Below are positions 607-61,339 of a DNA stretch of 64,000 nucleotides, piece by piece. A program made the translations under genes and the position numbers. The notes below the pieces were generated by a model. That model did not search any database. It was not told where the DNA came from and saw only the letters and a list, made by a program, of their open reading frames with translations. This DNA comes from Escherichia phage UPWr_E1: the sequence record PP418985.1; one strand, given 5' to 3'. How positions within the stretch are numbered: the stretch's first letter is position 1; each line of letters opens with the position of its first letter.

Positions 607-1014
607 ATGGACCTAAACGATTTGAAAGAACAATTAGAAGCTGACATGAAGATCGATGCGACTAAATTGCAATGGGAGGCGCTGAATAATCCGGTAGTAT
701 ACTCAAAGTGGTTAAGGATTTACAGCGAGGCGAAGCGAGAGACGATTGCTCTTGAGGCTAAAAAGAAAAAGGCTATGAAAAATCGTCTTGACTTTTACAC
801 TAACCGTAGTGATGACTGGTGTCGCGCTGAATATGAGAAATCAGAATTGAAAGTTGTTATGGCAGCAGACGACGAGATATTACCACTTGATACGAAAATT
901 GCATATTACCAGATGGTAATGGATTTCGCTGGTCGCGCACTTGATATCGTTAAATCTCGTGGATTTGCGATCAAGAATGCTATAGAATTGCGTATGCTGG
1001 AATCTGGTCGCTAA
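607..1014 (+). CDS. uvsY: UvsY recombination mediator
   Basis: AAGGGG RBS; 135 aa; KLQWEALNNPVVYSKW...RLDFYT...KSRGFAIK matches recalled T4 UvsY. Confidence 0.9.
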   Translation: MDLNDLKEQLEADMKIDATKLQWEALNNPVVYSKWLRIYSEAKRETIALEAKKKKAMKNRLDFYTNRSDDWCRAEYEKSELKVVMAADDEILPLDTKIAYYQMVMDFAGRALDIVKSRGFAIKNAIELRMLESGR

Positions 1015-1034
1015 ATACATGCAGGAGGAATTTT

Positions 1035-1211
1035 ATGAAAATCTGTATTTGTTGTAAACAACCTGTCGAGGATGCGTTAGCCGTCCAGACAGAAAACGGC
1101 GTTGTTCACACTGGCTACTGCTTACAGCTAGTAACAGAACGTTCGATTAGTGAAAATGCGAACGGCGAAGAACAAGAACAACTCGTAGAGCAAACAATGC
1201 TGTTAATGTAA
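1035..1211 (+). CDS. small Cys-rich hypothetical protein (uvsY.-1/-2 position)
   Basis: AGGAGG RBS 6 nt before ATG 1035; 58 aa; below ORF-track length cutoff. Confidence 0.45.
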   Translation: MKICICCKQPVEDALAVQTENGVVHTGYCLQLVTERSISENANGEEQEQLVEQTMLLM

Positions 1212-3128: not shown

Positions 3129-3854
3129 ATGTTTGATAAAGAATATTTCGAAGAACTCCGCGCTATTGCGGCGTCCGACGACAAAGAAGCACAGAAAACA
3201 GCTAAAACAGAATTAGCTGACTACGCAAAACAATTTGATATCAAGGTCAAAAAGACGTTATCACTAGAGAACATGATCGAGTTCGTAGAAACCGAATTAA
3301 CTAAACTGGCTTCCGAAATGGAAGAAGAAACTCCGGCAGAAGGAACCAGTATTAACGATCTTATTCTGGCAGCAGATACCGCAGATGATAAAGTGGTATT
3401 CGACGAAGTTGATCCGTCTCTGGTTGAAGCAATGAAAGAACCCGAGATCGTCATTGAAGAAACAAAAGAAGAATCTCCAGCAGTTGAACCAGTGGTCGAA
3501 GAAGTTAAGTCAGTTGTTGAAGAAGCGCCGGAAGTTAAAGTGGAATCTCCGGTAGCCAACATTTTCTCCGACGAAGCAGAGCATCGTTCCCCAGCACATG
3601 ACACTGATTCATTTTGTGATCTTACTGGTTTCCGTCCGACCATTTGCTTGATCGGTGGCGGTCGTGGTTACTACTCCTGCCCGTGGTGGATTTTCGACTG
3701 GATTGTTAATACTCCAGATTGGAAGAAGTACCCAGAGCGTTTCCCGCACGCGTATGTACACGACACCCTCAAGTCACTGATCTATTATATCAAACGCGAT
3801 GGGTCTGTCAAGGTGCGAGAGACTAAACACAGCCAATTCCACACTCTTAAATAA
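3129..3854 (+). CDS. hypothetical protein with acidic E/V-rich centre and Cys/Trp-rich C-terminal domain; occupies T4 inh/segD position
   Basis: AGGAG RBS; 241 aa; synteny between uvsW and hoc; no motif recognised. Confidence 0.6.
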   Translation: MFDKEYFEELRAIAASDDKEAQKTAKTELADYAKQFDIKVKKTLSLENMIEFVETELTKLASEMEEETPAEGTSINDLILAADTADDKVVFDEVDPSLVEAMKEPEIVIEETKEESPAVEPVVEEVKSVVEEAPEVKVESPVANIFSDEAEHRSPAHDTDSFCDLTGFRPTICLIGGGRGYYSCPWWIFDWIVNTPDWKKYPERFPHAYVHDTLKSLIYYIKRDGSVKVRETKHSQFHTLK

Positions 3855-3932
3855 TAAGAGTGTAAAAGTTGTGAAATATTTGTTATGTTTTTAATTGTAG
3901 TTCCGTTATGCAATTAAAAAAGAGGATATTAC

Positions 3933-6476
3933 ATGTCTAACAAAATCAATGTATTACATCAAACAGAAGGTCCGGTTTATGGTTCCGTTGGTCGTCCACT
4001 TCTGTTAAAGATTGTTGTCAGTACAGCAGATTTTAAAGATTTTATAGCAGAATGGAAGCTGAACGGTGTAAATGTGCCAGCAGAACAAATTTCCGACGCG
4101 GATCAGTCTCTGTATATTGAGGAAATGCGAGAAAATCAATTTGGTACATATACATGTCACATTAAACTGAAAGACGAACCACAGGTCGGTGTAGATATTA
4201 AGCCTATTCTTGTACAGCGTAGATTTTTTATTGCACCGCAAGATCAGTCTCCGACGTATATTAAAAAACGAATCGGCGAAGAATTAACCCTATTCGCAAC
4301 ACCAGCAATTGAACTAGGTCAACACCCAGAGTTTCAATGGTATCGAAATCATATTCCGGTAGAACCAGAAAAAATCGAGGACAACCGAACCGTTCATATT
4401 GCCCGTGTTGGTCTTATTGATTTTGGCAATTATACGTGTCGTGTTACTGTCCGTGGTGAACCAGCATCACAATATTGGATTAATCCAATTATTGTAGAAA
4501 AGAATGATACCCCTCCTGTAGTGCATCTTAGCGAAGAATATCCTAGCTCTATTACAGTAGCAGAGGATTCAGCGGTACATCTCAATGTACTTGTTACATC
4601 AGATGATAAAGTATCGCCTATTGAGTATACGTGGATTCATAACGGTAGGATTGTTATCGAAGAAAACGGAAACTCTTTGGCAATTCCGCATATTCGAAAA
4701 GATCAGGAAGGTATCTGGCGTCTTGAGGTAAAACAAGGTGACACTACGGTGTATTCTAAAGATTGTCATATTGAGGTTGATAGTCAACCATTCTTTAGGA
4801 TCACACGTCAACCGCAAACTCTTAACGTGTCTGGCGGTGCTTTGGGTTTATTCAGCGTTGATTATAGAACAAACTATTCACCTGTAAAGATCCAGTGGTA
4901 TCGTAAAAAGAATACAGAACAGGAGTTTACACCAATTGTAGGTGAGACTAATAAAGATCTTCATATTACACCAGCTACTACTGAATTAAACCGAGCACGC
5001 TACAAAGCTCGTATCACGTATGGCACAGACCAATACAGAGATTCAGAAGAAGCTGAATTGCTAGTAGGTGAAGCATTAACTATTAGAATCACCAAACAAC
5101 CACAAGCTCTACAAAACGTCCGAGTTTCTTCCTCACAGACGATCACTTGTGAAGCTGAAACAAACTATGAACATTATCGCTTAGATTATCAGTGGTATAA
5201 AGATAACGAATTAATGCCAGGCAAAACATCTAATGTATTGCACTTCTCATCAATCAAAAAGACAGATGAGGGGCAATATAAGTGTATTGCATCAATGGGT
5301 ATTTCTGGTCATCGAATTACCGCAGAATCATCACCAGCACAGGTGACAGTAGACAATTCAAAGGCATCACTGACTATCACTAAACAGCCAACTGGTGCAA
5401 CAATTCGCACTGGTGGGTCGTGGTCTATTTCGGTCGAAGCAACATCAAACGATGCACTACCGATTCGCTATCGCTGGTTTAAAGACGGCGAAGATCTATT
5501 CCCACAAGGCGTTGAACAAAAAAACGTTTACGGTGAAGACCATGCTCAACCTGATTCGACTGGTGTATATACTTGTCGCGTTTCGGTTGGTTTTGGTGAT
5601 CACCGAGCGTCTCAAATGTCACATCCAGCAAGGGTGCTAATTAGCGATAATGTGGAAATTGTGCCGAATGACTTACAGGTCACCGCACATCCTCATGATA
5701 ATGACGTTAAGTATAATCAGCGTGTTATCTTAACAGCAAGATCTCAAAATAGCATCGGGTTAAAACCACATATTCAATGGAAAAAGGATGGTGTTGCTAT
5801 TCCGGGTGCAAATTCAGAGACTTTAGTCATTGAGCACGCGAAACCATTGGATGCAGGGGTTTACACCGCAGATATTACCGCAGCAGAAAAAACGGTAACA
5901 ACCAATCCGGCTACAGTTACTGTAGCAGAGCACAGCAATATTAATATCTTAAAACATCCAGTGGATGTGGTTGCAAAAGAAGGACAAACCACCGACATTG
6001 TATTGGAAGCTCATGCGGAACATTCTGACGGTGAAACCGAAGTTAGTTATCAGTGGCATAAAATTAAAGATGGCGTAGACACTGAAATAAGAGATGCAAC
6101 AAATAAAACTTTAGTTATCCCTCATGCACAGATCAGCAAGCAAGCTCATCAAGCGACCTATTACGCCGAGATAAAAGAAGAGAATGGACACGTTAAACAT
6201 AGCGAAAAAGTTCGAGTGGTGTTTACTACCGCGAAATTAAAACGCTATGTTCACCCGATCCCGTGGCGACGTACATCCTTCCAGTATCAAGGCTATTGGG
6301 TTATGGATGAGATTGATCGCTGTAATCGTGAAGGGCTTAACTGGCTTGAGGACTTTACGCACACCAAATATCCAGAAGAGATCGAAACTATTGCTGCATC
6401 ATTGCATCATTATTCAAATACTCATGTATTAGAATCTCGTAATGGTTATCTGGTTGATGGTACTCAACTATTTTAA
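3933..6476 (+). CDS. hoc: Hoc-like capsid decoration protein with ~7-8 Ig-like repeats and a shared C-terminal domain
   Basis: AGAGGA RBS; repeated W-Y/F-[KR]...G-x-Y-x-C Ig-like motifs (GNYTCRVTV, GQYKCIAS, GVYTCRVSV); C-terminal RYVHPIPWRRTSF...ESRNGY; hoc position. Confidence 0.7.
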   Translation: MSNKINVLHQTEGPVYGSVGRPLLLKIVVSTADFKDFIAEWKLNGVNVPAEQISDADQSLYIEEMRENQFGTYTCHIKLKDEPQVGVDIKPILVQRRFFIAPQDQSPTYIKKRIGEELTLFATPAIELGQHPEFQWYRNHIPVEPEKIEDNRTVHIARVGLIDFGNYTCRVTVRGEPASQYWINPIIVEKNDTPPVVHLSEEYPSSITVAEDSAVHLNVLVTSDDKVSPIEYTWIHNGRIVIEENGNSLAIPHIRKDQEGIWRLEVKQGDTTVYSKDCHIEVDSQPFFRITRQPQTLNVSGGALGLFSVDYRTNYSPVKIQWYRKKNTEQEFTPIVGETNKDLHITPATTELNRARYKARITYGTDQYRDSEEAELLVGEALTIRITKQPQALQNVRVSSSQTITCEAETNYEHYRLDYQWYKDNELMPGKTSNVLHFSSIKKTDEGQYKCIASMGISGHRITAESSPAQVTVDNSKASLTITKQPTGATIRTGGSWSISVEATSNDALPIRYRWFKDGEDLFPQGVEQKNVYGEDHAQPDSTGVYTCRVSVGFGDHRASQMSHPARVLISDNVEIVPNDLQVTAHPHDNDVKYNQRVILTARSQNSIGLKPHIQWKKDGVAIPGANSETLVIEHAKPLDAGVYTADITAAEKTVTTNPATVTVAEHSNINILKHPVDVVAKEGQTTDIVLEAHAEHSDGETEVSYQWHKIKDGVDTEIRDATNKTLVIPHAQISKQAHQATYYAEIKEENGHVKHSEKVRVVFTTAKLKRYVHPIPWRRTSFQYQGYWVMDEIDRCNREGLNWLEDFTHTKYPEEIETIAASLHHYSNTHVLESRNGYLVDGTQLF

Positions 6477-42759: not shown

Positions 42760-44559
42760 TCACCCAAGATCAATACGGCTACCATCAATTTTAACTGTAC
42801 CAGATGCAATATCTTTAACGCTTGCACCACAATTACGGGACCAGTCACCATTAACCTGATCGGATTTAGTGCCGTTGACGGTCATATTAAAATTACCCTC
42901 AACGGTTAAATCATAGTTACCTTTAATTGTCTCGGTAGTGTTACCCTCGATCATTAATTCAGCATTACCCTTGACATTAGCCGTCAAATTAGCGTCAAGC
43001 TGTGCGATAACATCACCGACAACATGCATATTAGCTGTACCTTCAACGGTCTGATTAACATTACCACGAATAAATTCAGTGACGTTACCATCAACGGTTT
43101 GCATCACATTACCCATATAATAAACTTGCGCGTCACCTTCAACAACAACTTGCAAATTACCCTTAACGTTTACTTTCCGGCCTTGTTTAACGATCAGATA
43201 ATCATCGCCTTCAATCTTTTCTACCCTCGTTCCGTCCGGTCTGGTTTCTTCAAATGTACCAGAAGGATGTTTGCGATGATATCGCTCATGAGAAGGAGTA
43301 TCATCAATCTCGATAATATGACCGCTCTCCGACTCGTACACATGGTTATAAGGATACCTTGCAGAATACGAACTCTTAGGCTCTTTAAACATGATTCGTG
43401 TGTCTTGTGGGGTAAACGGTGCTTCTGGGTCTTCTTCTGCTCTCTGCGTCTTATAGGCAGCAATACGGGCATTTCTCAAACGTGCTCGCGGATCATCAGA
43501 AATTGATTCCTCTTTCTTTGGAGCAATTACGCCATATGATTCTAAGTTACCAGTAAGAATAATTTTAGAAACACGGCTTGACCGTCCTGGAGTTTGGTTA
43601 GCCCATACCGATTGACGTAATCCATCATAGGCTTGTTTCCATTCTTCCGCCAGCATTGCAGCAAGACTATTCTTAAATTTACCCAATCCACCAACACCCA
43701 TTTGAAACGCCATATTTTCTAATGCCATACGACGAGAAGCATTACACTTATTATAGACAGGTGCAATTCGTGGATGTTTGCGCATATCACGACGAGTCTT
43801 TTCTATATCGTCAGCAAATACTTTACTAACTTCTTCGGCGGTAAGTCTTCCGTTTGTAACTTCACGCCCTACCAGCTTAGAAAGTTCATTATTGATAATA
43901 CCAAGATCACTGGTTTTCTTATAAATGATCAAATGCCCGATGCCTATTGTCGGATATCCTTCTGAATCAAGATACCATTTCTCGCGATATCCCTCATCGC
44001 CCCGCAGCATTTTTTCTATTGTATATTCTGGGTTATCATCAACCGGAATTTGGTCTAATGGCTCGTCGTCTGGATTTACTGCAACTCCAGTGTTTTCATC
44101 TCGAATATAGACACTATCAGGTTTTGTTGTTTGTCCGGTTTCTGGGTTAATACCGCCACGAGCAAGAATATTAACATCATTACCAATATAACGAGGATAT
44201 GCACCAGAAGGGTCGCAAAACCCTTCTGTAGTGAGTGGTTTCTCTGTATATTGTCCGGCAATAGTGCCAAGAATAACGCAGTTTAAATAACGTTCATCTA
44301 AAGCCAAACCAAACACCATTGAACCTTCAACAATACCAGTAGGGCTTTGACCTATACCGGAGATCGCCGCGCTTGTAATATCTTGCACTGGCGTAATCCA
44401 TAATAGATCTTCGGTTGGAAGACCTTGAATGTCACCGTGTGCGGATAGCGAAGGATGTATACCATGAATCCTAACCTGAACTCGGCCTAACATTAATGGG
44501 TCTTCCCTGTTTTCTACAATTCCGGTAAACCATTTAACGGAGTTATTAAACATTAGCAT
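42760..44559 (-). CDS. 5: baseplate hub and tail lysozyme gp5
   Basis: N-terminal FTGIVENREDPLMLGRVQVRIHGIHP; central T4-lysozyme-like domain (DSEGYPTIGIGHL ... MAFQMG ... WANQTPGRS); C-terminal V-x-G-N beta-helix repeats. Confidence 0.9.
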   Translation of the reverse strand: MLMFNNSVKWFTGIVENREDPLMLGRVQVRIHGIHPSLSAHGDIQGLPTEDLLWITPVQDITSAAISGIGQSPTGIVEGSMVFGLALDERYLNCVILGTIAGQYTEKPLTTEGFCDPSGAYPRYIGNDVNILARGGINPETGQTTKPDSVYIRDENTGVAVNPDDEPLDQIPVDDNPEYTIEKMLRGDEGYREKWYLDSEGYPTIGIGHLIIYKKTSDLGIINNELSKLVGREVTNGRLTAEEVSKVFADDIEKTRRDMRKHPRIAPVYNKCNASRRMALENMAFQMGVGGLGKFKNSLAAMLAEEWKQAYDGLRQSVWANQTPGRSSRVSKIILTGNLESYGVIAPKKEESISDDPRARLRNARIAAYKTQRAEEDPEAPFTPQDTRIMFKEPKSSYSARYPYNHVYESESGHIIEIDDTPSHERYHRKHPSGTFEETRPDGTRVEKIEGDDYLIVKQGRKVNVKGNLQVVVEGDAQVYYMGNVMQTVDGNVTEFIRGNVNQTVEGTANMHVVGDVIAQLDANLTANVKGNAELMIEGNTTETIKGNYDLTVEGNFNMTVNGTKSDQVNGDWSRNCGASVKDIASGTVKIDGSRIDLG

Positions 44560-52399: not shown

Positions 52400-52582
52400 A
52401 TGAAAAAGATTAATTGGTTAGCGAACATAGGCGCGGTATGCGCCTTTAACATCCTCGGATGGATAATGTTACATTTTGATGAGCGAGTTTCAAAATGTGA
52501 CGGTGCATTAATTCTCGGATCGGCTAGCATATTCATTATGCTGTATGCAATTGCTGTTGACTTAAGCCGCGAGGATTGTTAA
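52400..52582 (+). CDS. small membrane protein
   Basis: hydrophobic 60 aa. Confidence 0.5.
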   Translation: MKKINWLANIGAVCAFNILGWIMLHFDERVSKCDGALILGSASIFIMLYAIAVDLSREDC

Positions 52583-52583
52583 T

Positions 52584-52781
52584 ATGACGATCAAGAATAT
52601 GTTTTTCAACTTCGTAGGTGCTTCCATTCTTTCAATGCTATATCTTGTGATTGTATGGATGGGCGACTATGAATTAACTAACGATGAAAATCTGACAGTG
52701 TTTACTGTCTTGACGATGATCATTTACACTGTCTTTCTTGTCTTGGATTTTATTGTGTTTCTTTACAAAACGGTGACTTGA
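52584..52781 (+). CDS. small membrane protein
   Basis: hydrophobic 65 aa. Confidence 0.5.
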   Translation: MTIKNMFFNFVGASILSMLYLVIVWMGDYELTNDENLTVFTVLTMIIYTVFLVLDFIVFLYKTVT

Positions 52782-52978
52782 TGACGATTAGGAAAAATGA
52801 TATTGGTTTTGTTGCGGGTATCGCTAGCGTCTTTACTGTTGTTATTTTGCTAATGCTTTTACCCGGTGTATTCTCTGACCAGATTGAATTGTATATAGCT
52901 TTTATCTGTTGCATTTATACTTGGTTTGCAATGTTTGTGATTAGTCTAATTATGCAATTCGTAGTTAACAAATTTTAA
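52778..52978 (+). CDS. small membrane protein
   Basis: ATGA overlap with upstream ORF; hydrophobic 66 aa. Confidence 0.5.
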   Translation: MMTIRKNDIGFVAGIASVFTVVILLMLLPGVFSDQIELYIAFICCIYTWFAMFVISLIMQFVVNKF

Positions 52979-52999
52979 ATTTAATGTGAGGATTATATT

Positions 53000-53320
53000 A
53001 TGAGCAAACTGTTTGAAACTCCGCGTGAAATTCTGATTGACAAGCTGAAAGAACGTGGTTTTAAAATTAAAGATGCAACAAAATACAGCCGAATTGATGA
53101 AATTAAGTTGCATTCTCTTGATGAACTGGTAGAATATGTTGCGGCAGTTGCTGATCCGCAGTTTGATGTGATTGTAGGTGACGTTGAATATCTCGATAAT
53201 GTATATTCATTCTTCACTTATGGTAAAATTGTGTCTGTGAAAATTTCATTCTGTGAAAATGTGGAGGTGCTTGCTAGTGAACCAGAAGAACCAACTGACA
53301 ACGGTCCTACGGCAGCGTAA
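53000..53320 (+). CDS. hypothetical protein (106 aa)
   Basis: GAGGA RBS. Confidence 0.55.
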   Translation: MSKLFETPREILIDKLKERGFKIKDATKYSRIDEIKLHSLDELVEYVAAVADPQFDVIVGDVEYLDNVYSFFTYGKIVSVKISFCENVEVLASEPEEPTDNGPTAA

Positions 53321-53591
53321 CAAGGAAGACCGCCTGATTTATTCGCTGGCGGTTATCCTTGAAAAAGAATTGCCGGATCTTGAGGTAGTTTTTACTGACC
53401 GACCAGTCGGCCAACGTTACGGAGGATATGACAGCCTAGTTTATCCTTCATATAGCCTTGAAATGTGGTTAGAAGATTTTAAAAATCTGGCTGATACATC
53501 TAAACCGCTTTATTTGTGGGATGTTGAGTATAATTGCGATCCTAACTGGCCTGGTATTAATGTTTATGCGTCTATGACTTTAAAGGTGTGA
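53253..53591 (+). CDS. hypothetical ORF overlapping the previous one by 68 nt in another frame
   Basis: no convincing RBS; may be the continuation of 53000..53320 after a frameshift. Confidence 0.3.
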   Translation: MKMWRCLLVNQKNQLTTVLRQRNKEDRLIYSLAVILEKELPDLEVVFTDRPVGQRYGGYDSLVYPSYSLEMWLEDFKNLADTSKPLYLWDVEYNCDPNWPGINVYASMTLKV

Positions 53592-53593
53592 TA

Positions 53594-53752
53594 ATGGTTG
53601 AACAAATGTTAACTTCAATGGTAATGGCTTTCTGTATGGTTGTTGTTATGATTGCAATGATCCCTAAAGAGAGAATGAATCTGCTTGTCGCTGTCTGTAT
53701 GGGCGTTGTTTGTGGATGGTTTGGGATCGCGCTAGAACAAGCTCTGCGTTGA
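53594..53752 (+). CDS. small membrane protein (52 aa)
   Basis: AAGGTG RBS; Met/Val-rich hydrophobic. Confidence 0.45.
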   Translation: MVEQMLTSMVMAFCMVVVMIAMIPKERMNLLVAVCMGVVCGWFGIALEQALR

Positions 53753-53813
53753 TTAACAATGCGGGTAGTACATTCCACTACCCGCACTAATTTATCTCAC
53801 TGGAGGATTTTCT

Positions 53814-54002
53814 ATGGCGTTTTATCTATGGTTGCTTATAGTATGCTTTGTAATGGGTTTATGCTTCTATACTGGCGTATTCTGTTTTGTCGCCTGGATA
53901 GACGGCGGATTCTCTAATATCATTTTGCTTGCCGGATCAATTGCCTCGTTTCTGTTGATATGGCTTTTTTCTTATTTGTTTGGTGAATGGGGTTTATTAT
54001 GA
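53814..54002 (+). CDS. small membrane protein
   Basis: GGAGGA RBS; two hydrophobic segments. Confidence 0.5.
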   Translation: MAFYLWLLIVCFVMGLCFYTGVFCFVAWIDGGFSNIILLAGSIASFLLIWLFSYLFGEWGLL

Positions 54003-54178
54003 ACAAATATATGTTTTGGGCGACCCTTGCCTATGTTGTGATTGCGGTAGTCTGGGGATTCTGTGTTATTGTCGCTTCTCTGATCTGGTGGGAATCACTT
54101 GGCGCGGGTTGTCTTATTAGCGGCGCATCATGTCTTATCACTGGCGTGATTGTTGGTTTTCTTATTTGGGAGGATTGA
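53999..54178 (+). CDS. small membrane protein
   Basis: ATGA overlap with upstream ORF. Confidence 0.5.
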   Translation: MNKYMFWATLAYVVIAVVWGFCVIVASLIWWESLGAGCLISGASCLITGVIVGFLIWED

Positions 54179-54180
54179 CA

Positions 54181-54396
54181 ATGGTTTTCTTCGGTCTTAT
54201 TATAATGGTGCTTAATGTCATTTGTGGCGTTGCTATGTTAGCTATGGCCTTTACTGTTCCTATGTCTGTTGACAGCGCCGCATCCGTAGGTGTGTTGGGA
54301 ATTGTAAACCTGTTTACTGCCCTAGCATGTTGGATCACCGGACGCGATGAGGTAATGTATTACTTTTATAAACGTAAACAGAGAAAAGGAAAATAA
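54181..54396 (+). CDS. small membrane protein
   Basis: GGGAGGA RBS then ATG 54181. Confidence 0.5.
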   Translation: MVFFGLIIMVLNVICGVAMLAMAFTVPMSVDSAASVGVLGIVNLFTALACWITGRDEVMYYFYKRKQRKGK

Positions 54397-54397
54397 T

Positions 54398-54589
54398 ATG
54401 AGATTTGCATTTGGTTTTACCGTGATGTTGATTATTGCTCTGAGTATGTGTACCGGAATGCTTGTATTTGGTCTTGCAAACGGGTTTAGCATTTATAATA
54501 ATCAGTGGGTTGATTGGGGAATGGTTGTCGTTAATGCGATCCTGATTGGTGCTAATACAAGAACTCTATGCAGGATCGCCGGAATCTAA
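54398..54589 (+). CDS. small membrane protein
   Basis: GGAAAA then ATG; hydrophobic. Confidence 0.5.
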   Translation: MRFAFGFTVMLIIALSMCTGMLVFGLANGFSIYNNQWVDWGMVVVNAILIGANTRTLCRIAGI

Positions 54590-54617
54590 ATATTATCACT
54601 CACAAAGGGGGTGAATA

Positions 54618-55007
54618 ATGTTTAAATTATCTCAAAGAAGCAAAGATCGGCTTGTTGGTGTGCATCCTGATCTGGTAAAAGTCGTTCATCGTGCATTAGA
54701 ACTGACTCCGGTCGATTTTGGTATTACAGAAGGTGTACGTAGTCTCGCAACGCAAAAGAAATATGTTGCGGAAGGTAAATCTAAGACTATGAAATCTCGT
54801 CATCTTCACGGTTTCGCGGTTGATGTTGTAGCGTATCCGAAAGATAAAGATACATGGAACATGAAATATTACCGCATGATCGCTGATGCATTTAAACAAG
54901 CTGGTCGAGAATTGGGTGTTCCTGTTGAGTGGGGCGGGGATTGGACTAGTTTTAAAGATGGTCCTCATCTACAATTGCCACACAGCAAATACCCAGATCC
55001 AAAATAA
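54618..55007 (+). CDS. peptidase M15-type L-alanyl-D-glutamate peptidase (endolysin-like), no signal peptide
   Basis: zinc-site motifs SRHLHGFAVD and WGGDW...DGPHLQL as in VanY/T5-Lys-type peptidases. Confidence 0.75.
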   Translation: MFKLSQRSKDRLVGVHPDLVKVVHRALELTPVDFGITEGVRSLATQKKYVAEGKSKTMKSRHLHGFAVDVVAYPKDKDTWNMKYYRMIADAFKQAGRELGVPVEWGGDWTSFKDGPHLQLPHSKYPDPK

Positions 55008-55069
55008 AATATTAACCATCAACGGGGAGACAATCTAAGGATCTCTCCCCGTTCACTGGAGACTTGACA

Positions 55070-55555
55070 ATGAATATTGATGTAAAATTAGAAAGTAAAG
55101 ATTTGATTTATGCTGCATGTGTTTCTGCCGTAGATGGCATCATAGAACGCCGTAAGCGACGCAATTTTGCTGATGACCTAGATTCCATCGTCTCAATCAA
55201 TTTAGGGCGTCAAACAGGGCATACAGACGCTACAATCAAGTTATATGACCATTATACGCGAAAAGGATACAGTGTCTTTATCGTTTCGACAACGCGGGAA
55301 CATGTCAAAACGATCCGAGATCGCGGTCGCGGTGAAAATGTAAATATTTCAAATGTAGATTGTACGTCGATCCGAACTTTCCTGAATCCTATTACATGGC
55401 GAGGTCGTCGGCTTGACAAAACAATCTTTATCCTAGATACTACCATGCGCGGATTTACTGACAGCGTATTGCAGTTTTTAGAATTAAATCGACTTAGTGT
55501 TGGAAGGGGTAGTGTAGAAGACCAACCTATTTTCATTGGCTTAGGCATCAACTAA
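55070..55555 (+). CDS. hypothetical protein (162 aa)
   Basis: GGAG RBS then ATG 55070. Confidence 0.55.
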   Translation: MNIDVKLESKDLIYAACVSAVDGIIERRKRRNFADDLDSIVSINLGRQTGHTDATIKLYDHYTRKGYSVFIVSTTREHVKTIRDRGRGENVNISNVDCTSIRTFLNPITWRGRRLDKTIFILDTTMRGFTDSVLQFLELNRLSVGRGSVEDQPIFIGLGIN

Positions 55556-58258: not shown

Positions 58259-58849
58259 ATGTTAAAAGTTCTAAAAGCGATAGTATTGAGTCTGTCACTA
58301 GCCGTTGGTGCTACACACGCATCGACTAGCGCACCGATCAAAAAAGCGCCGATAGACAACTTTACAGCACACCAACTAGATAATTTACATTTCGCCTATC
58401 AATATGGCGAACAATTCGAGAAAAGCGGTAAGTTGAAAAATGACCATCCGAATATTCGCTATGACGGAAAGGGTTTAGGCCACATCCTGGCGGGTATCGC
58501 ATGGCAAGAATCAAGCGCGGGTGCAAACTTAGCACCAAAGAAAAATCATCATGCTTATGGATTATTTCAAAATTACCTTAAAACGGTGAAAGCGAAAAAT
58601 GCAAAGCGCGGTGTTAAAATGAGTGATCGCCAGACTATCAAATTTATCATGAATCGCGAGGTTTCTGCATTCTACGCGATGGATGAGTTAGCATACTGGC
58701 TGGATGTTCGAAACGGTAATATCCGACTCGCGCTAGCTTCTTACAATGCAGGATGGAACTATAAAGCCGGTTTAGGTTATGCTGATGACGTACTAAAAAA
58801 GGCTAACCATCTAAAGAGTAAAGGCATTCTTAAAACTAAACGCTATTGA
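58259..58849 (+). CDS. secreted lytic transglycosylase (SLT-domain) protein
   Basis: signal peptide MLKVLKAIVLSLSLAVGATHA; SLT motifs AWQESS...YGLFQ and YNAG. Confidence 0.7.
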   Translation: MLKVLKAIVLSLSLAVGATHASTSAPIKKAPIDNFTAHQLDNLHFAYQYGEQFEKSGKLKNDHPNIRYDGKGLGHILAGIAWQESSAGANLAPKKNHHAYGLFQNYLKTVKAKNAKRGVKMSDRQTIKFIMNREVSAFYAMDELAYWLDVRNGNIRLALASYNAGWNYKAGLGYADDVLKKANHLKSKGILKTKRY

Positions 58850-60995: not shown

Positions 60996-61003
60996 TATAA
61001 ATA
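60996..61003 (+). promoter_or_regulatory. T4-type late promoter TATAAATA (rI-like gene)
   Basis: exact TATAAATA 34 nt upstream of the ATG at 61037. Confidence 0.5.
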
Positions 61004-61036
61004 TAACTGAATATTTTCAATCTGGGGGAATGACTT

Positions 61037-61339
61037 ATGTCATTTATTCGTAAAACTCTAACAGCGGCAATATGCTTGACTGCGGTCGGAAGTGTCAGTG
61101 CTGATCAATATGATCCAACTGGTGACTTTACTGATTATTTCGACGGTGCAATGATAGTATATGTAAACAAAATATCTCCTTCCATTGAAACCAGCCAGAA
61201 ATTTCATGCCCATATTATGAAGATGTATGCTCGTAGTAAATGTATGGATTCTAAGCAGTGTTTTATTATGGGGGAATATGCCGCACAACAATTTGTTATG
61301 TTGCATAATGTGGAGAATCGAGAACATGAAATTCAGTGA
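61037..61339 (+). CDS. rI: RI-like lysis inhibition regulator (periplasmic)
   Basis: signal-anchor then DP...F...YV.K.S......F...M..Y....C.....C pattern as in recalled T4 RI; adjacent to tk as in T4. Confidence 0.5.
   Translation: MSFIRKTLTAAICLTAVGSVSADQYDPTGDFTDYFDGAMIVYVNKISPSIETSQKFHAHIMKMYARSKCMDSKQCFIMGEYAAQQFVMLHNVENREHEIQ

What the first reader, a model, noticed from the sequence alone, without database searches (positions are those of the whole stretch)
53814..55007. Candidate non-T4-type lysis cassette: four coupled small membrane proteins upstream of a signal-less M15 peptidase
T4 uses a lysozyme endolysin (gene e). In this window the only cytoplasmic cell-wall hydrolase is an M15 peptidase (SRHLHGFAVD, WGGDW...DGPHLQL), directly preceded by four translationally coupled 60-88 aa membrane proteins that could act as holin/antiholin or spanin-like partners.
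Basis: partly seen in the sequence, partly recalled or inferred. Interest (0 to 1): 0.45.

Follow-up and report, generated by a model that had tools for sequence, protein, structure and literature searches.

The report
Known RB49 endolysin, unexplained membrane neighbours
This is the already characterised cell-wall peptidase of RB49-like (T4-type) coliphages, which has replaced the T4 lysozyme in an otherwise ordinary T4-type lysis system; the four tiny membrane-protein genes in front of it are genus-restricted genes of unknown function, with no sign that they are its lysis partners.

Summary
The window comes from a Krischvirus (an RB49/Phi1/JSE-like T4-type phage). The genes described are real. 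Four tightly packed two-helix membrane ORFs of 62, 59, 71 and 63 aa (not 60-88) lie upstream of a signal-less M15 peptidase.

The peptidase is EndoRB49, a biochemically characterised L-alanoyl-D-glutamate endolysin with solved structures. It sits where T4 keeps gene e.

The "non-T4 lysis cassette" reading is not supported:
- All 58 Krischvirus genomes carry a T4-type T holin.
- The RI antiholin is in this window (61037-61339).
- RB49 has PseT.3/PseT.2 spanins.

The four small proteins have no detectable relatives outside the genus and no similarity to holins or spanins. They are 4 of 14 small membrane ORFs among 36 genes in the corresponding 11-kb segment of RB49. The first of them is broken or deleted in five viable phages.

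The endolysin has its own ribosome-binding site inside a conserved hairpin. The 5' arm of that hairpin carries TCTAAATA, the same 8-mer that the RB49 record annotates as a late promoter. This mirrors the known control of T4 gene e, where early read-through mRNA is masked and late mRNA is open. That parallel is predicted here, not demonstrated.

The function of p2-p4 remains unknown. My best guess is early accessory inner-membrane proteins. Interest is low to moderate.

The parts
53594..53752 (+). p0: a 52-aa two-helix membrane ORF (RB49p107 orthologue), the last gene before the upstream hairpin
   Evidence: It has its own small PHROG (phrog_16035, unknown function). dN/dS is 0.09-0.38.
53760..53786 (+). 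Terminator-like hairpin between p0 and p1, with a conserved G+C-rich stem and a variable loop
   Evidence: Found by the scan. Annotated as a terminator in phage G2494. The stem is kept and the loop varies across 11 relatives and 2 divergent contigs.
53814..54002 (+). p1: a 62-aa two-helix membrane ORF with no Lys or Arg. It is the least constrained of the four and is dispensable.
   Evidence: phrog_19354, unknown function. dN/dS is 0.18-0.44. It is deleted in ELT4, has lost its start codon in ECD7, is frameshifted in PHB13, and aligns only over residues 1-52 in Cognac and Whisky.
53999..54178 (+). p2: a 59-aa two-helix membrane ORF whose start overlaps the p1 stop (ATGA)
   Evidence: phrog_16151, unknown function. 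dN/dS is 0.09-0.30, and the last four residues vary.
54181..54396 (+). p3: a 71-aa helical-hairpin membrane protein with a strongly basic C-terminal tail (YKRKQRKGK). It is the most conserved of the four and the only one with a holin-like outline.
   Evidence: the 88-aa form is rejected. The AF2 model has helices 2-25 and 30-69, pLDDT 77. A profile search of 1.84 billion representative proteins found no homologue outside its own cluster. The fold search returned only the Phi1 orthologue.
54398..54589 (+). p4: a 63-aa membrane ORF. Its stop codon (54587-54589) lies inside the 5' arm of the endolysin hairpin.
   Evidence: phrog_15016, unknown function. All relatives found are at least 86% identical. 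dN/dS is 0.09-0.28.
54585..54592 (+). TCTAAATA, a T4-type late-promoter-like box 25 nt upstream of the endolysin ATG. The predicted late start is near 54598.
   Evidence: It is the only copy of this 8-mer in the window. It is identical to the 8-mer annotated 'late RB49 promoter' in the RB49 record (L003 32182-32189). It is invariant in all relatives examined.
54583..54628 (+). RNA hairpin that pairs the endolysin Shine-Dalgarno sequence (GGGGGTGA) and AUG with the upstream promoter-bearing arm
   Evidence: MFE is -12.5 kcal/mol with z = -2.6. In the divergent lineage it is -18.7 kcal/mol, after one deletion and two substitutions on the 3' arm. A transcript starting near 54598 loses the structure. 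The layout matches T4 gene e.
54618..55007 (+). Endolysin EndoRB49: a signal-less Zn-dependent M15C L-alanoyl-D-glutamate peptidase
   Evidence: Pfam PF13539. PDB 23ri at 6e-87 and 8q2g. phrog_465, endolysin. Residues H62, D69, W109, D114 and H117 are present by direct reading against PMC10487532. dN/dS is 0.02-0.17.
55022..55052 (+). Second conserved G+C-rich hairpin after the endolysin gene. Like the first, it is followed by TCACTGGAG and the next gene's start.
   Evidence: TCACTGGAG occurs exactly twice in the window, both times after these hairpins.
55070..55555 (+). vs.8 homologue, the downstream neighbour that anchors synteny with the T4 e region
   Evidence: Annotated vs.8 in RB49. BLASTP against T4 Vs.8 gives 3e-6. 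T4 gene order is shown.
61037..61339 (+). rI antiholin orthologue (100 aa), preceded by an exact TATAAATA at 60996-61003. It is part of the real lysis system of this phage.
   Evidence: Pfam PF24205 (T4-like antiholin) at 1e-23.
42760..44559 (-). gp5 baseplate hub, carrying the only T4-lysozyme-like domain in the genome. It is a virion protein, not an endolysin.
   Evidence: tblastn with T4 lysozyme hits only here. Pfam domains Gp5_OB, Phage_lysozyme and Gp5_C.

Best explanation
The locus is the endolysin gene of a Krischvirus, together with the last run of small membrane-protein genes of unknown function in a variable, early-direction region. It is not a self-contained lysis cassette.

Lysis in this phage most likely works as in T4, with one swapped part. 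The T holin, regulated by the RI antiholin, opens the inner membrane. The cytoplasmic M15 L-Ala-D-Glu peptidase EndoRB49 then escapes to cut peptidoglycan cross-bridges, in place of the T4 lysozyme E. The PseT.3/PseT.2 spanins finish the outer membrane.

The endolysin gene occupies the genomic slot of T4 e and appears to keep e-type timing control. This part is inferred. On long early transcripts that read through p1-p4, a hairpin hides its ribosome-binding site and start codon. Late transcripts start from a late promoter (TCTAAATA) embedded in the hairpin's 5' arm, lack that arm and are translated.

p2-p4 are real, conserved, genus-restricted inner-membrane hairpin proteins, and p1 is a decaying one. 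They are most likely made early and act on the host envelope, for example in superinfection exclusion or host-membrane modulation in the manner of T4 Imm or Sp. This last step is a guess from context, with perhaps 35-40% confidence, and is not demonstrated.
For: - Identity of the phage and of the endolysin; PMC8140593 and PMC10487532.
- No e gene anywhere in the window or the rest of RB49. Only the gp5 lysozyme domain is found. Uzan and Miller also list RB49 and phi-1 as lacking e.
- T holin: Pfam 4.5e-61, present at 97% identity or more in all 58 Krischvirus records.
- RI antiholin in the window with a TATAAATA box upstream.
- T4-family spanins in RB49.
- Synteny with T4: endolysin, then vs.8, vs.6, regB, vs.1, vs, tk.4, tk, rI.
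- Hairpin and promoter.
- Another T4-like phage with an M15 endolysin, KP15, also has its Shine-Dalgarno sequence paired with a segment lying upstream of a CATAAATA box (z = -4.5).
- Small proteins: no Pfam hit above threshold, and each falls in a separate small PHROG of unknown function. They show no similarity to each other, to T, RI or the spanins, or to the holins beside the closest endolysin homologue.
- No relatives outside the genus were found for p3 and p4 at the protein level, or for the p1-p4 DNA among deposited phages.
- In the corresponding 11-kb segment of RB49, 14 of 36 genes are small membrane ORFs, arranged in three runs. RB49 and phi1 hyperplastic regions are known to be rich in non-essential genes without known homologues (PMC2839356).
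- p1 has been lost in five phages.
- No late-promoter-like ATAAATA or CTAAATA box lies upstream of p1-p4.
Against: - p2-p4 are retained next to the endolysin in every relative found, including the lineage only about 80% identical. That retention is more stable than the upstream membrane-gene runs, which vary.
- p3 has the outline of a class II holin or pinholin: 71 aa, two helices and a basic C-terminal tail.
- The p4 stop codon lies inside the 5' arm of the hairpin. Ribosomes finishing p4 could therefore open it and couple endolysin translation to p4, rather than the hairpin silencing it.
- The late-promoter box has C at position -12, which Nolan et al. report as rare outside phage Aeh1.
- No transcript mapping or expression data exist for this region.
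- Early expression of p1-p4 and their envelope role are inferred from position only.
- The t and spanin genes lie outside the window. They are inferred for this phage from its 96-98% identical relatives.
Confidence: 0.7

Rival explanations
1. The four small membrane proteins are the dedicated holin/antiholin (or spanin-like) partners of the M15 endolysin and form a non-T4 lysis cassette.
For: - The genes are adjacent and tightly packed.
- All four are small two-helix membrane proteins.
- p3 has a basic C-terminal tail typical of holins.
- M15 endolysins elsewhere do sit beside holins, as in Nonanavirus AVIO78A.
- p2-p4 are conserved under purifying selection.
Against: - The genus has a complete T4-type set: T, RI, PseT.3 and PseT.2.
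- No similarity to any holin or spanin family was found. The Pfam holin hits have E-values of 0.03-0.4, below threshold.
- None has a lipobox or a long periplasmic coiled coil, so the spanin features are absent.
- p1 is lost in five viable phages.
- p1, p2 and p4 lack charged tails.
- No late-promoter motif lies ahead of them.
- Similar runs of small membrane ORFs occur twice more in the region, away from any lysin.
- The endolysin of Slopekvirus KP15 (46% identical) has no membrane genes upstream.
Confidence: 0.08
2. p2-p4 are not holins but accessory lysis modulators tied to the endolysin. The hairpin would then be a translational-coupling device: ribosomes terminating p4 inside the 5' arm open the endolysin ribosome-binding site, so the endolysin is made in proportion to p4. 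The membrane proteins would tune timing or localisation alongside the T holin.
For: - The p4 stop (54587-54589) lies within the 5' arm (54583-54601).
- The p4-endolysin junction is invariant across relatives.
- p2-p4 are retained with the endolysin in all lineages found.
Against: - In T4 the upstream gene nudE also ends a few nucleotides before the e hairpin, yet the review reports that early e mRNA yields about 100-fold less lysozyme (PMC3014915).
- The 5' arm carries an exact copy of an annotated RB49 late-promoter box, which the coupling model does not need.
- There is no homology or precedent for such modulators.
- All relatives are so close (at least 80% identity) that retention may simply reflect vertical inheritance.
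Confidence: 0.12
3. The small ORFs are non-functional filler or mis-called genes in a hyperplastic region.
For: - They have no detectable relatives outside the genus and no family hits.
- p1 is repeatedly broken.
- Several deposited annotations omit p1.
Against: - dN/dS is well below 1 for p2, p3 and p4.
- Their reading frames are intact in all 13 sequences compared.
- Start codons, Shine-Dalgarno sequences and gene order are conserved in the lineage about 80% identical.
Confidence: 0.05

Closest known systems
EndoRB49 / EndoT5 family of phage L-alanoyl-D-glutamate peptidases (MEROPS M15C; PDB 23ri, 8q2g, 2mxz)
   Same: The window protein differs by one residue (A44 instead of E44) from the chain deposited as 23ri, which is identical to the RB49 gene product in the alignment. 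All Zn ligands and catalytic residues are present (H62, D69, H117, D114, W109). It has the same length and no signal sequence.
   Different: Nothing of substance differs. It is a strain variant.
T4 lysis system (E lysozyme, T holin, RI antiholin, PseT.3/PseT.2 spanins)
   Same: The holin, antiholin and spanins are orthologous. The endolysin gene sits in the same genomic slot as T4 e, upstream of vs.8...regB...vs...tk...rI.
   Different: The endolysin is a non-homologous M15 peptidase instead of a glycoside hydrolase. ipIII, ipII and denV are absent between it and vs.8.
Translational masking of T4 gene e (McPheeters et al. 1986, as reviewed in PMC3014915)
   Same: A hairpin sequesters the Shine-Dalgarno sequence and AUG. 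A late-promoter box lies in the 5' arm, so late transcripts would lack that arm. The upstream gene ends at the foot of the hairpin.
   Different: There is one box rather than two, and it is the variant TCTAAATA rather than TATAAATA. The stem is weaker in this window (-12.5 against -17 kcal/mol). The gene regulated is unrelated to e. No transcript mapping exists here.
Class II holins / pinholins (for example phage 21 S21-68, recalled from general knowledge)
   Same: p3 is 71 aa, with two transmembrane helices and a short, basic cytoplasmic C-terminal tail, and it lies near an endolysin gene.
   Different: No sequence or profile similarity to any holin family was found. No late-promoter motif lies upstream. 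A canonical T holin is already present. The resemblance is in outline only.
Genes without known homologues in the hyperplastic regions of RB49/phi1 (Arbiol et al. 2010, PMC2839356), and T4 early small membrane proteins such as Imm and Sp (recalled from general knowledge)
   Same: They are small, genus-restricted and arranged in runs on the early-transcribed strand. They are flanked by G+C-rich stem-loops, and some are dispensable.
   Different: The two hairpins here lack an adjacent consensus sigma-70 promoter, so they are not complete PeSL cassettes. p2-p4 are retained in every relative rather than coming and going. No homology to Imm or Sp families was seen.

Membership tests
M15C phage L-alanoyl-D-glutamate peptidase endolysin (EndoRB49/EndoT5) | Sequence membership in the Peptidase_M15_4 / M15C family | tested here: met
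   PF13539 at 4.4e-12 and 46.8 bits, above the cut-off of 25. phrog_465 (endolysin) at 1.7e-68. PDB 23ri at 6e-87 and EndoT5 2mxz at 9e-22.
M15C phage L-alanoyl-D-glutamate peptidase endolysin (EndoRB49/EndoT5) | Zn ligands H62, D69 and H117, catalytic D114, conserved W109 | tested here: met
   All are present at those positions in the translated sequence, read against the residues listed in PMC10487532.
M15C phage L-alanoyl-D-glutamate peptidase endolysin (EndoRB49/EndoT5) | [quoted passage not shown] | not testable with these tools
   Published for the RB49 enzyme, which differs by one residue (PMC8140593, PMC10487532).
M15C phage L-alanoyl-D-glutamate peptidase endolysin (EndoRB49/EndoT5) | Soluble cytoplasmic protein that needs a holin (no signal or SAR sequence) | tested here: met
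   No hydrophobic segment was found (Kyte-Doolittle window of 17).
Holin (any class) | Small integral membrane protein with at least one transmembrane helix | tested here: met
   p1-p4 each have two hydrophobic stretches. p3 is modelled as a helical hairpin.
Holin (any class) | Hydrophilic, highly charged C-terminal tail | tested here: inconclusive
   Met by p3 only (RDEVMYYFYKRKQRKGK). p1, p2 and p4 end in short, nearly uncharged tails.
Holin (any class) | Homology to a described holin family | tested here: not met
   The Pfam holin hits have E-values of 0.03-0.4, below the cut-offs. All four fall in PHROGs of unknown function. The profile search of 1.84 billion proteins found only p3's own cluster. 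BFVD returned only the Phi1 orthologue.
Holin (any class) | Late expression together with the endolysin | tested here: inconclusive
   No ATAAATA or CTAAATA box lies upstream of p1-p4. The only late-type box lies after p4, serving the endolysin. No transcript data exist.
Holin (any class) | Forms lethal membrane lesions and is required for lysis | not testable with these tools
   p1 at least is not required, since it is disrupted in ELT4, ECD7, PHB13, Cognac and Whisky.
Two-component or unimolecular spanin | An i-spanin has an N-terminal transmembrane helix plus a long periplasmic coiled coil. An o-spanin or u-spanin has a lipoprotein signal with a lipobox Cys. | tested here: not met
   p1-p4 are 59-71 aa hairpins with periplasmic loops of about 5-12 residues. 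By direct reading none has an L-[ASTVI]-[GAS]-C lipobox after a signal peptide. RB49 already belongs to the T4 PseT.3/PseT.2 families.
T4-type lysis system | T holin (Pfam Phage_holin_T) | tested here: met
   RB49 t scores 4.5e-61. It is at least 97% identical in all 58 Krischvirus records, including the nearest relatives W115 and ELT4. The gene lies outside this window.
T4-type lysis system | RI antiholin | tested here: met
   Window 61037-61339 matches PF24205 at 1e-23 and 83 bits, above the cut-off of 27.
T4-type lysis system | E lysozyme (glycoside hydrolase) as the endolysin | tested here: not met
   tblastn with T4 lysozyme finds only the gp5 domain in the window plus the rest of RB49. 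The role is taken by the M15 peptidase.
T4 gene e-type translational masking | Hairpin that sequesters the Shine-Dalgarno sequence and start codon in upstream-initiated transcripts | tested here: met
   MFE is -12.5 kcal/mol and 2 of 200 shuffles fold as well. It is conserved, and stronger (-18.7) in the divergent lineage.
T4 gene e-type translational masking | Late promoter inside or at the 5' arm, so that late mRNA lacks the arm | tested here: inconclusive
   TCTAAATA at 54585-54592 is identical to the box annotated 'late RB49 promoter' and is unique in the window. However, C at -12 is unusual and no 5' ends have been mapped.
T4 gene e-type translational masking | Demonstrated repression of translation on early mRNA | not testable with these tools
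   This needs reporter fusions or ribosome profiling.

The most novel reading that the evidence does not exclude
p3, together with p2 and p4, is a new genus-restricted holin-like or lysis-timing module. It would serve the acquired M15 endolysin alongside the ancestral T holin, giving a T4-type phage two membrane-lesion systems. The conserved hairpin at the p4/endolysin junction would then couple the two.
Probability: 0.1. Interest if true: 0.55.

Novelty: already known. Interest (0 to 1): 0.22.

Why it matters
The main point, that RB49-like phages lyse with an M15 peptidase instead of T4 lysozyme, has been known since the EndoRB49 work, so the finding adds little there.

Two smaller points may be useful.
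- The replacement endolysin seems to have kept, or re-acquired, the hairpin-plus-late-promoter timing device known from T4 gene e, and a second T4-like lineage (KP15) shows a similar layout. If confirmed, this would show that the control logic is tied to the lysis role and the genomic slot rather than to the enzyme family. It would also extend a classic example of post-transcriptional control to phages that earlier surveys set aside as 'no gene e'.
- p2-p4 are small membrane proteins without relatives outside the genus, conserved under purifying selection. They are cheap to knock out in therapy-relevant Krischvirus phages, and their function (superinfection exclusion, envelope modulation or lysis tuning) is open.

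Tried and rejected
- Homology of p1-p4 to any known family was sought with Pfam, PHROGs, pairwise BLASTP, two word-indexed searches of 5.8 billion proteins, one full HMMER profile search of 1.84 billion representatives, an IMG/VR scan, an AF2 model and a BFVD fold search. Nothing beyond close orthologues turned up.
- The idea that the small proteins are paralogues of one another or of the other small membrane ORFs nearby was rejected. All pairwise E-values exceed 0.09.
- The idea that the small genes arrived with the endolysin as a foreign cassette was rejected. The closest non-Krischvirus endolysin (Nonanavirus AVIO78A, 65% identity) is flanked by unrelated holin, antiholin and spanin genes. 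KP15 has soluble proteins upstream.
- The 88-aa reading of p3 was rejected.
- A strong sigma-70-like match (TTGACA-17-TATTAT, 54175-54203) was considered as an internal early promoter. It would start transcription inside p3, and it degrades to TTGAAA/TATTGT in divergent lineages, so it is left as unresolved.
- Complete PeSL cassettes (promoter plus stem-loop) were looked for at the two hairpins. No adjacent consensus promoter was found.
- Searches for Krischvirus transcriptome or lysis-genetics papers found nothing relevant.
- Desplats et al. 2002 (PMC135041), which describes RB49 promoters, is not held in the library.
- ECD7 coordinates were mis-specified in alignment A2, so that row should be ignored. 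ECD7 is correctly aligned.
Full report
**What the window is.** The 5-kb segment around the finding is 96-98% identical to 58 deposited genomes of the genus Krischvirus (RB49, Phi1, JSE, GEC-3S, W115 and others). The window runs antiparallel to the RB49 record and corresponds to roughly RB49 45.7-109.7 kb. The + strand of the window is therefore the strand on which T4-type phages transcribe their early genes.

**Checking the observation.** The ORFs exist.
- p1: 53814-54002, 62 aa.
- p2: 53999-54178, 59 aa, with an ATGA overlap with p1.
- p3: 54181-54396, 71 aa, with a GGAGG Shine-Dalgarno sequence 8 nt upstream and a 2-nt gap after p2.
- p4: 54398-54589, 63 aa, with a 1-nt gap after p3.
- M15 peptidase: 54618-55007, 129 aa, after a 28-nt gap.

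The '88 aa' protein is an over-extension of p3. The upstream ATG at 54130 is not conserved, and RB49 and contig L022 have an in-frame stop three codons before the 71-aa start. All deposited annotations use the 71-aa form.

Each small protein has two hydrophobic stretches. An AlphaFold model of p3 is a helical hairpin, with helices 2-25 and 30-69 and pLDDT 77.

These are real genes. The same order (62/59/71/63 aa, then 129 aa) recurs in metagenomic contigs of about 170 kb whose p3 is only 80-87% identical. Nei-Gojobori dN/dS against six relatives is shown below.

| Gene | dN/dS |
|---|---|
| p1 | 0.18-0.44 |
| p2 | 0.09-0.30 |
| p3 | 0-0.32 |
| p4 | 0.09-0.28 |
| endolysin | 0.02-0.17 |

**The peptidase is a known enzyme.**
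- It matches Pfam Peptidase_M15_4 and the endolysin family phrog_465.
- It differs at one residue from the solved chain 23ri, and it also closely matches 8q2g.
[quoted passage not shown] Its Zn ligands H62, D69 and H117, catalytic D114 and W109 have been defined (PMC10487532), and all are present here.
- It has no signal or membrane segment, so it needs a holin.
- tblastn with T4 lysozyme against the window plus the rest of RB49 finds only the lysozyme domain of the baseplate protein gp5 at 42760-44559 on the - strand. A review likewise lists RB49 and phi-1 as having 'no apparent gene e' (PMC3014915).

**The rest of the lysis system is T4-type.**
- RB49 encodes t, 218 aa, matching Pfam Phage_holin_T at 4.5e-61. 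tblastn finds it at 97% identity or more in exactly 58 records, the same number that carry this locus, including the nearest relatives W115 and ELT4.
- The RI antiholin is inside this window at 61037-61339 (PF24205, 1e-23). An exact TATAAATA lies 34 nt upstream of it.
[quoted passage not shown] RB49, Phi1 and JSE are listed as members of the T4 spanin families by Kongari et al. (PMC6139136).

The holin, antiholin and spanin roles are thus all filled by orthologues of the T4 proteins.

**Synteny.** In transcription order T4 has e, ipIII, ipII, denV, vs.8, vs.7, vs.6 ... regB, vs.1, vs, tk.4 ... tk, rI.1, rI. The window has the M15 endolysin, vs.8 (BLASTP 3e-6 against T4 Vs.8), a 41-aa ORF, vs.6, nrdC.11 ... 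regB, vs.1, vs, tk.4 ... tk, rI. The M15 gene occupies the slot of e, which indicates a non-orthologous replacement in place.

**What the small proteins are not.**
- Pfam gives no hit above threshold. The best holin-family E-values are 0.03-0.4.
- Each protein falls in its own small PHROG of unknown function.
- They are not similar to one another, to the other small membrane ORFs nearby, to T, RI, PseT.3 or PseT.2, or to the holin/antiholin pair that flanks the closest endolysin homologue outside the genus (Nonanavirus AVIO78A, 65% identity). All of these E-values exceed 0.09.
- The DNA of p1-p4 is found only in the 58 Krischvirus records.
- Word-indexed searches with p3 and p4 return only close relatives, at least 80% identical for the full-length matches.
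- A profile of p3 searched against 1.84 billion representative proteins finds only its own cluster.
- The fold search finds only the Phi1 orthologue.
- None has a lipobox or a long periplasmic domain, so the spanin features are absent.
- In Slopekvirus KP15, a T4-like phage with a 46% identical M15 endolysin, the upstream genes encode soluble proteins.

**Context of the small proteins.** In the 11-kb RB49 segment around the locus, 14 of 36 annotated genes are membrane proteins under 100 aa. They are arranged in three runs of five, three and five genes, and only the last run (p0-p4) abuts the endolysin. This is the kind of hyperplastic region, rich in non-essential genes without known homologues and in G+C-rich stem-loops, that Arbiol et al. 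described for RB49 and phi1 (PMC2839356).

p1 is visibly dispensable:
- ELT4 has a 146-nt deletion that removes it.
- ECD7 has lost its start codon.
- PHB13 has an 11-nt frameshifting deletion.
- Cognac and Whisky align only over residues 1-52.

By contrast, p2-p4 are intact in all 13 sequences I compared.

**How the endolysin gene seems to be controlled.** The 28-nt spacer and the first codons fold into a hairpin (54583-54628, -12.5 kcal/mol, 2 of 200 shuffles as stable). It pairs the Shine-Dalgarno sequence GGGGGTGA and the AUG with the upstream segment.

That segment contains TCTAAATA (54585-54592), the only copy of the 8-mer in the window. It is identical to the box annotated 'late RB49 promoter' upstream of gene 32 in the RB49 record.

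A transcript starting about 6 nt after the box, near 54598, loses nearly all of the pairing (-3.8 kcal/mol, with different partners).

The segment is invariant in the 11 relatives apart from one loop insertion and one flank change. In the divergent lineage, a 1-nt deletion and two substitutions on the 3' arm (also changing codons 3 and 4) give a longer stem of -18.7 kcal/mol that now pairs the C of the box.

This is the layout of T4 gene e, where two TATAAATA boxes sit in a -17 kcal/mol hairpin that hides the ribosome-binding site. For e it is documented that early read-through mRNA is poorly translated and late mRNA is open (PMC3014915).

KP15 shows a related arrangement. Its Shine-Dalgarno sequence AAGAGG pairs with a CCUCUU that lies upstream of a CATAAATA box (z = -4.5).

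Three caveats apply.
- C at -12 is reported as rare in late promoters outside Aeh1 (PMC1524935).
- Nothing has been mapped experimentally.
- The p4 stop codon lies inside the 5' arm, so terminating ribosomes could open the hairpin. The same structure could then serve translational coupling instead.

**Synthesis.** The best reading is an ordinary T4-type lysis system (T, RI, PseT.3/PseT.2) with a known, swapped endolysin that keeps e-like timing control. Immediately upstream lies the last run of Krischvirus-specific small membrane genes. Those genes are probably transcribed early by read-through from upstream promoters. One such promoter is annotated at about 52000 in GEC-3S. A conserved terminator-like hairpin at 53760-53786 may attenuate that read-through.

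The function of the small proteins is not established. From size, topology, strand and neighbourhood I favour early accessory inner-membrane proteins acting on the host envelope, in the manner of T4 Imm or Sp (recalled from general knowledge). That is a guess.

A holin-like or lysis-tuning role for p3, with or without p2 and p4, is not excluded, because of p3's basic tail and the constant linkage to the endolysin. It has no positive support beyond outline and adjacency.

**Verdict.** Novelty is 'already known' for the core of the finding. The predicted e-type masking of a non-orthologous endolysin and the conserved p2-p4 genes are modest new leads. Interest is 0.22.

Noticed in passing
window 60996-61339 (+): An rI antiholin orthologue (100 aa, PF24205 at 1e-23) lies here with an exact TATAAATA late-promoter box 34 nt upstream, followed by rI.-1.
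   Followed up: yes
L008 (Klebsiella phage KP15) 2434-2505: In this other T4-like lineage with an M15 endolysin, the Shine-Dalgarno sequence AAGAGG pairs with a CCUCUU located upstream of a CATAAATA box (-25.5 kcal/mol, z = -4.5). This suggests that early masking and late unmasking of endolysin translation may be general in T4-like phages that lack gene e.
   Followed up: partly
window 53760-53786 and 55022-55052 (+): Two G+C-rich hairpins with conserved stems and variable loops bracket the p1-to-endolysin unit. Each is followed within 12 nt by TCACTGGAG, which contains the next gene's Shine-Dalgarno sequence. These are the only two exact copies of that 9-mer in the window. They could be terminator or attenuator elements, or RegB (GGAG) processing sites. 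Neither has an adjacent consensus promoter, so they are not complete PeSL cassettes.
   Followed up: partly
window 54175-54203 (+): A near-consensus sigma-70 promoter match (TTGACA-17-TATTAT, 11 of 12) straddles the p2 stop and p3 start. It would initiate inside p3. It is conserved within the genus but weakened to TTGAAA/TATTGT in divergent contigs, and its function is unclear.
   Followed up: partly
L017 (JSE) 1559-1948; L019 and L022 3437-3826: The C-terminal third of the endolysin is mosaic among relatives. For example, VEWGGDWTSFKDGPHLQLPHSKYPDPK here contrasts with VVCGVDWVTFKDGPHIELDKKVYPDPR in metagenomic contigs, and JSE diverges from the same point. This suggests recombination within the 3' part of the gene.
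   Followed up: no
window 58259-58849 (+): Vs.1 orthologue with an N-terminal hydrophobic, signal-peptide-like start (by eye) and an SLT lytic-transglycosylase domain (PF01464, 7.7e-6). It is a second, probably exported, wall-active protein in the window with no assigned role.
   Followed up: partly
L002 (RB49) 923-1842, 3405-3983 and 4599-5594; window about 52400-54589: Small two-helix membrane ORFs come in three runs of five, three and five genes and make up 14 of 36 genes in this 11-kb early segment. All those tested belong to separate families with no relatives outside the genus. The upstream runs vary between relatives, for example genes missing in L020 and a truncation in ELT4.
   Followed up: partly
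window 1011-1040 (+): A CTAAATA box followed by AGGAGG and an ATG lies on the + strand, inside what is otherwise the late, - strand structural gene block. It may be a small late gene on the opposite strand.
   Followed up: no
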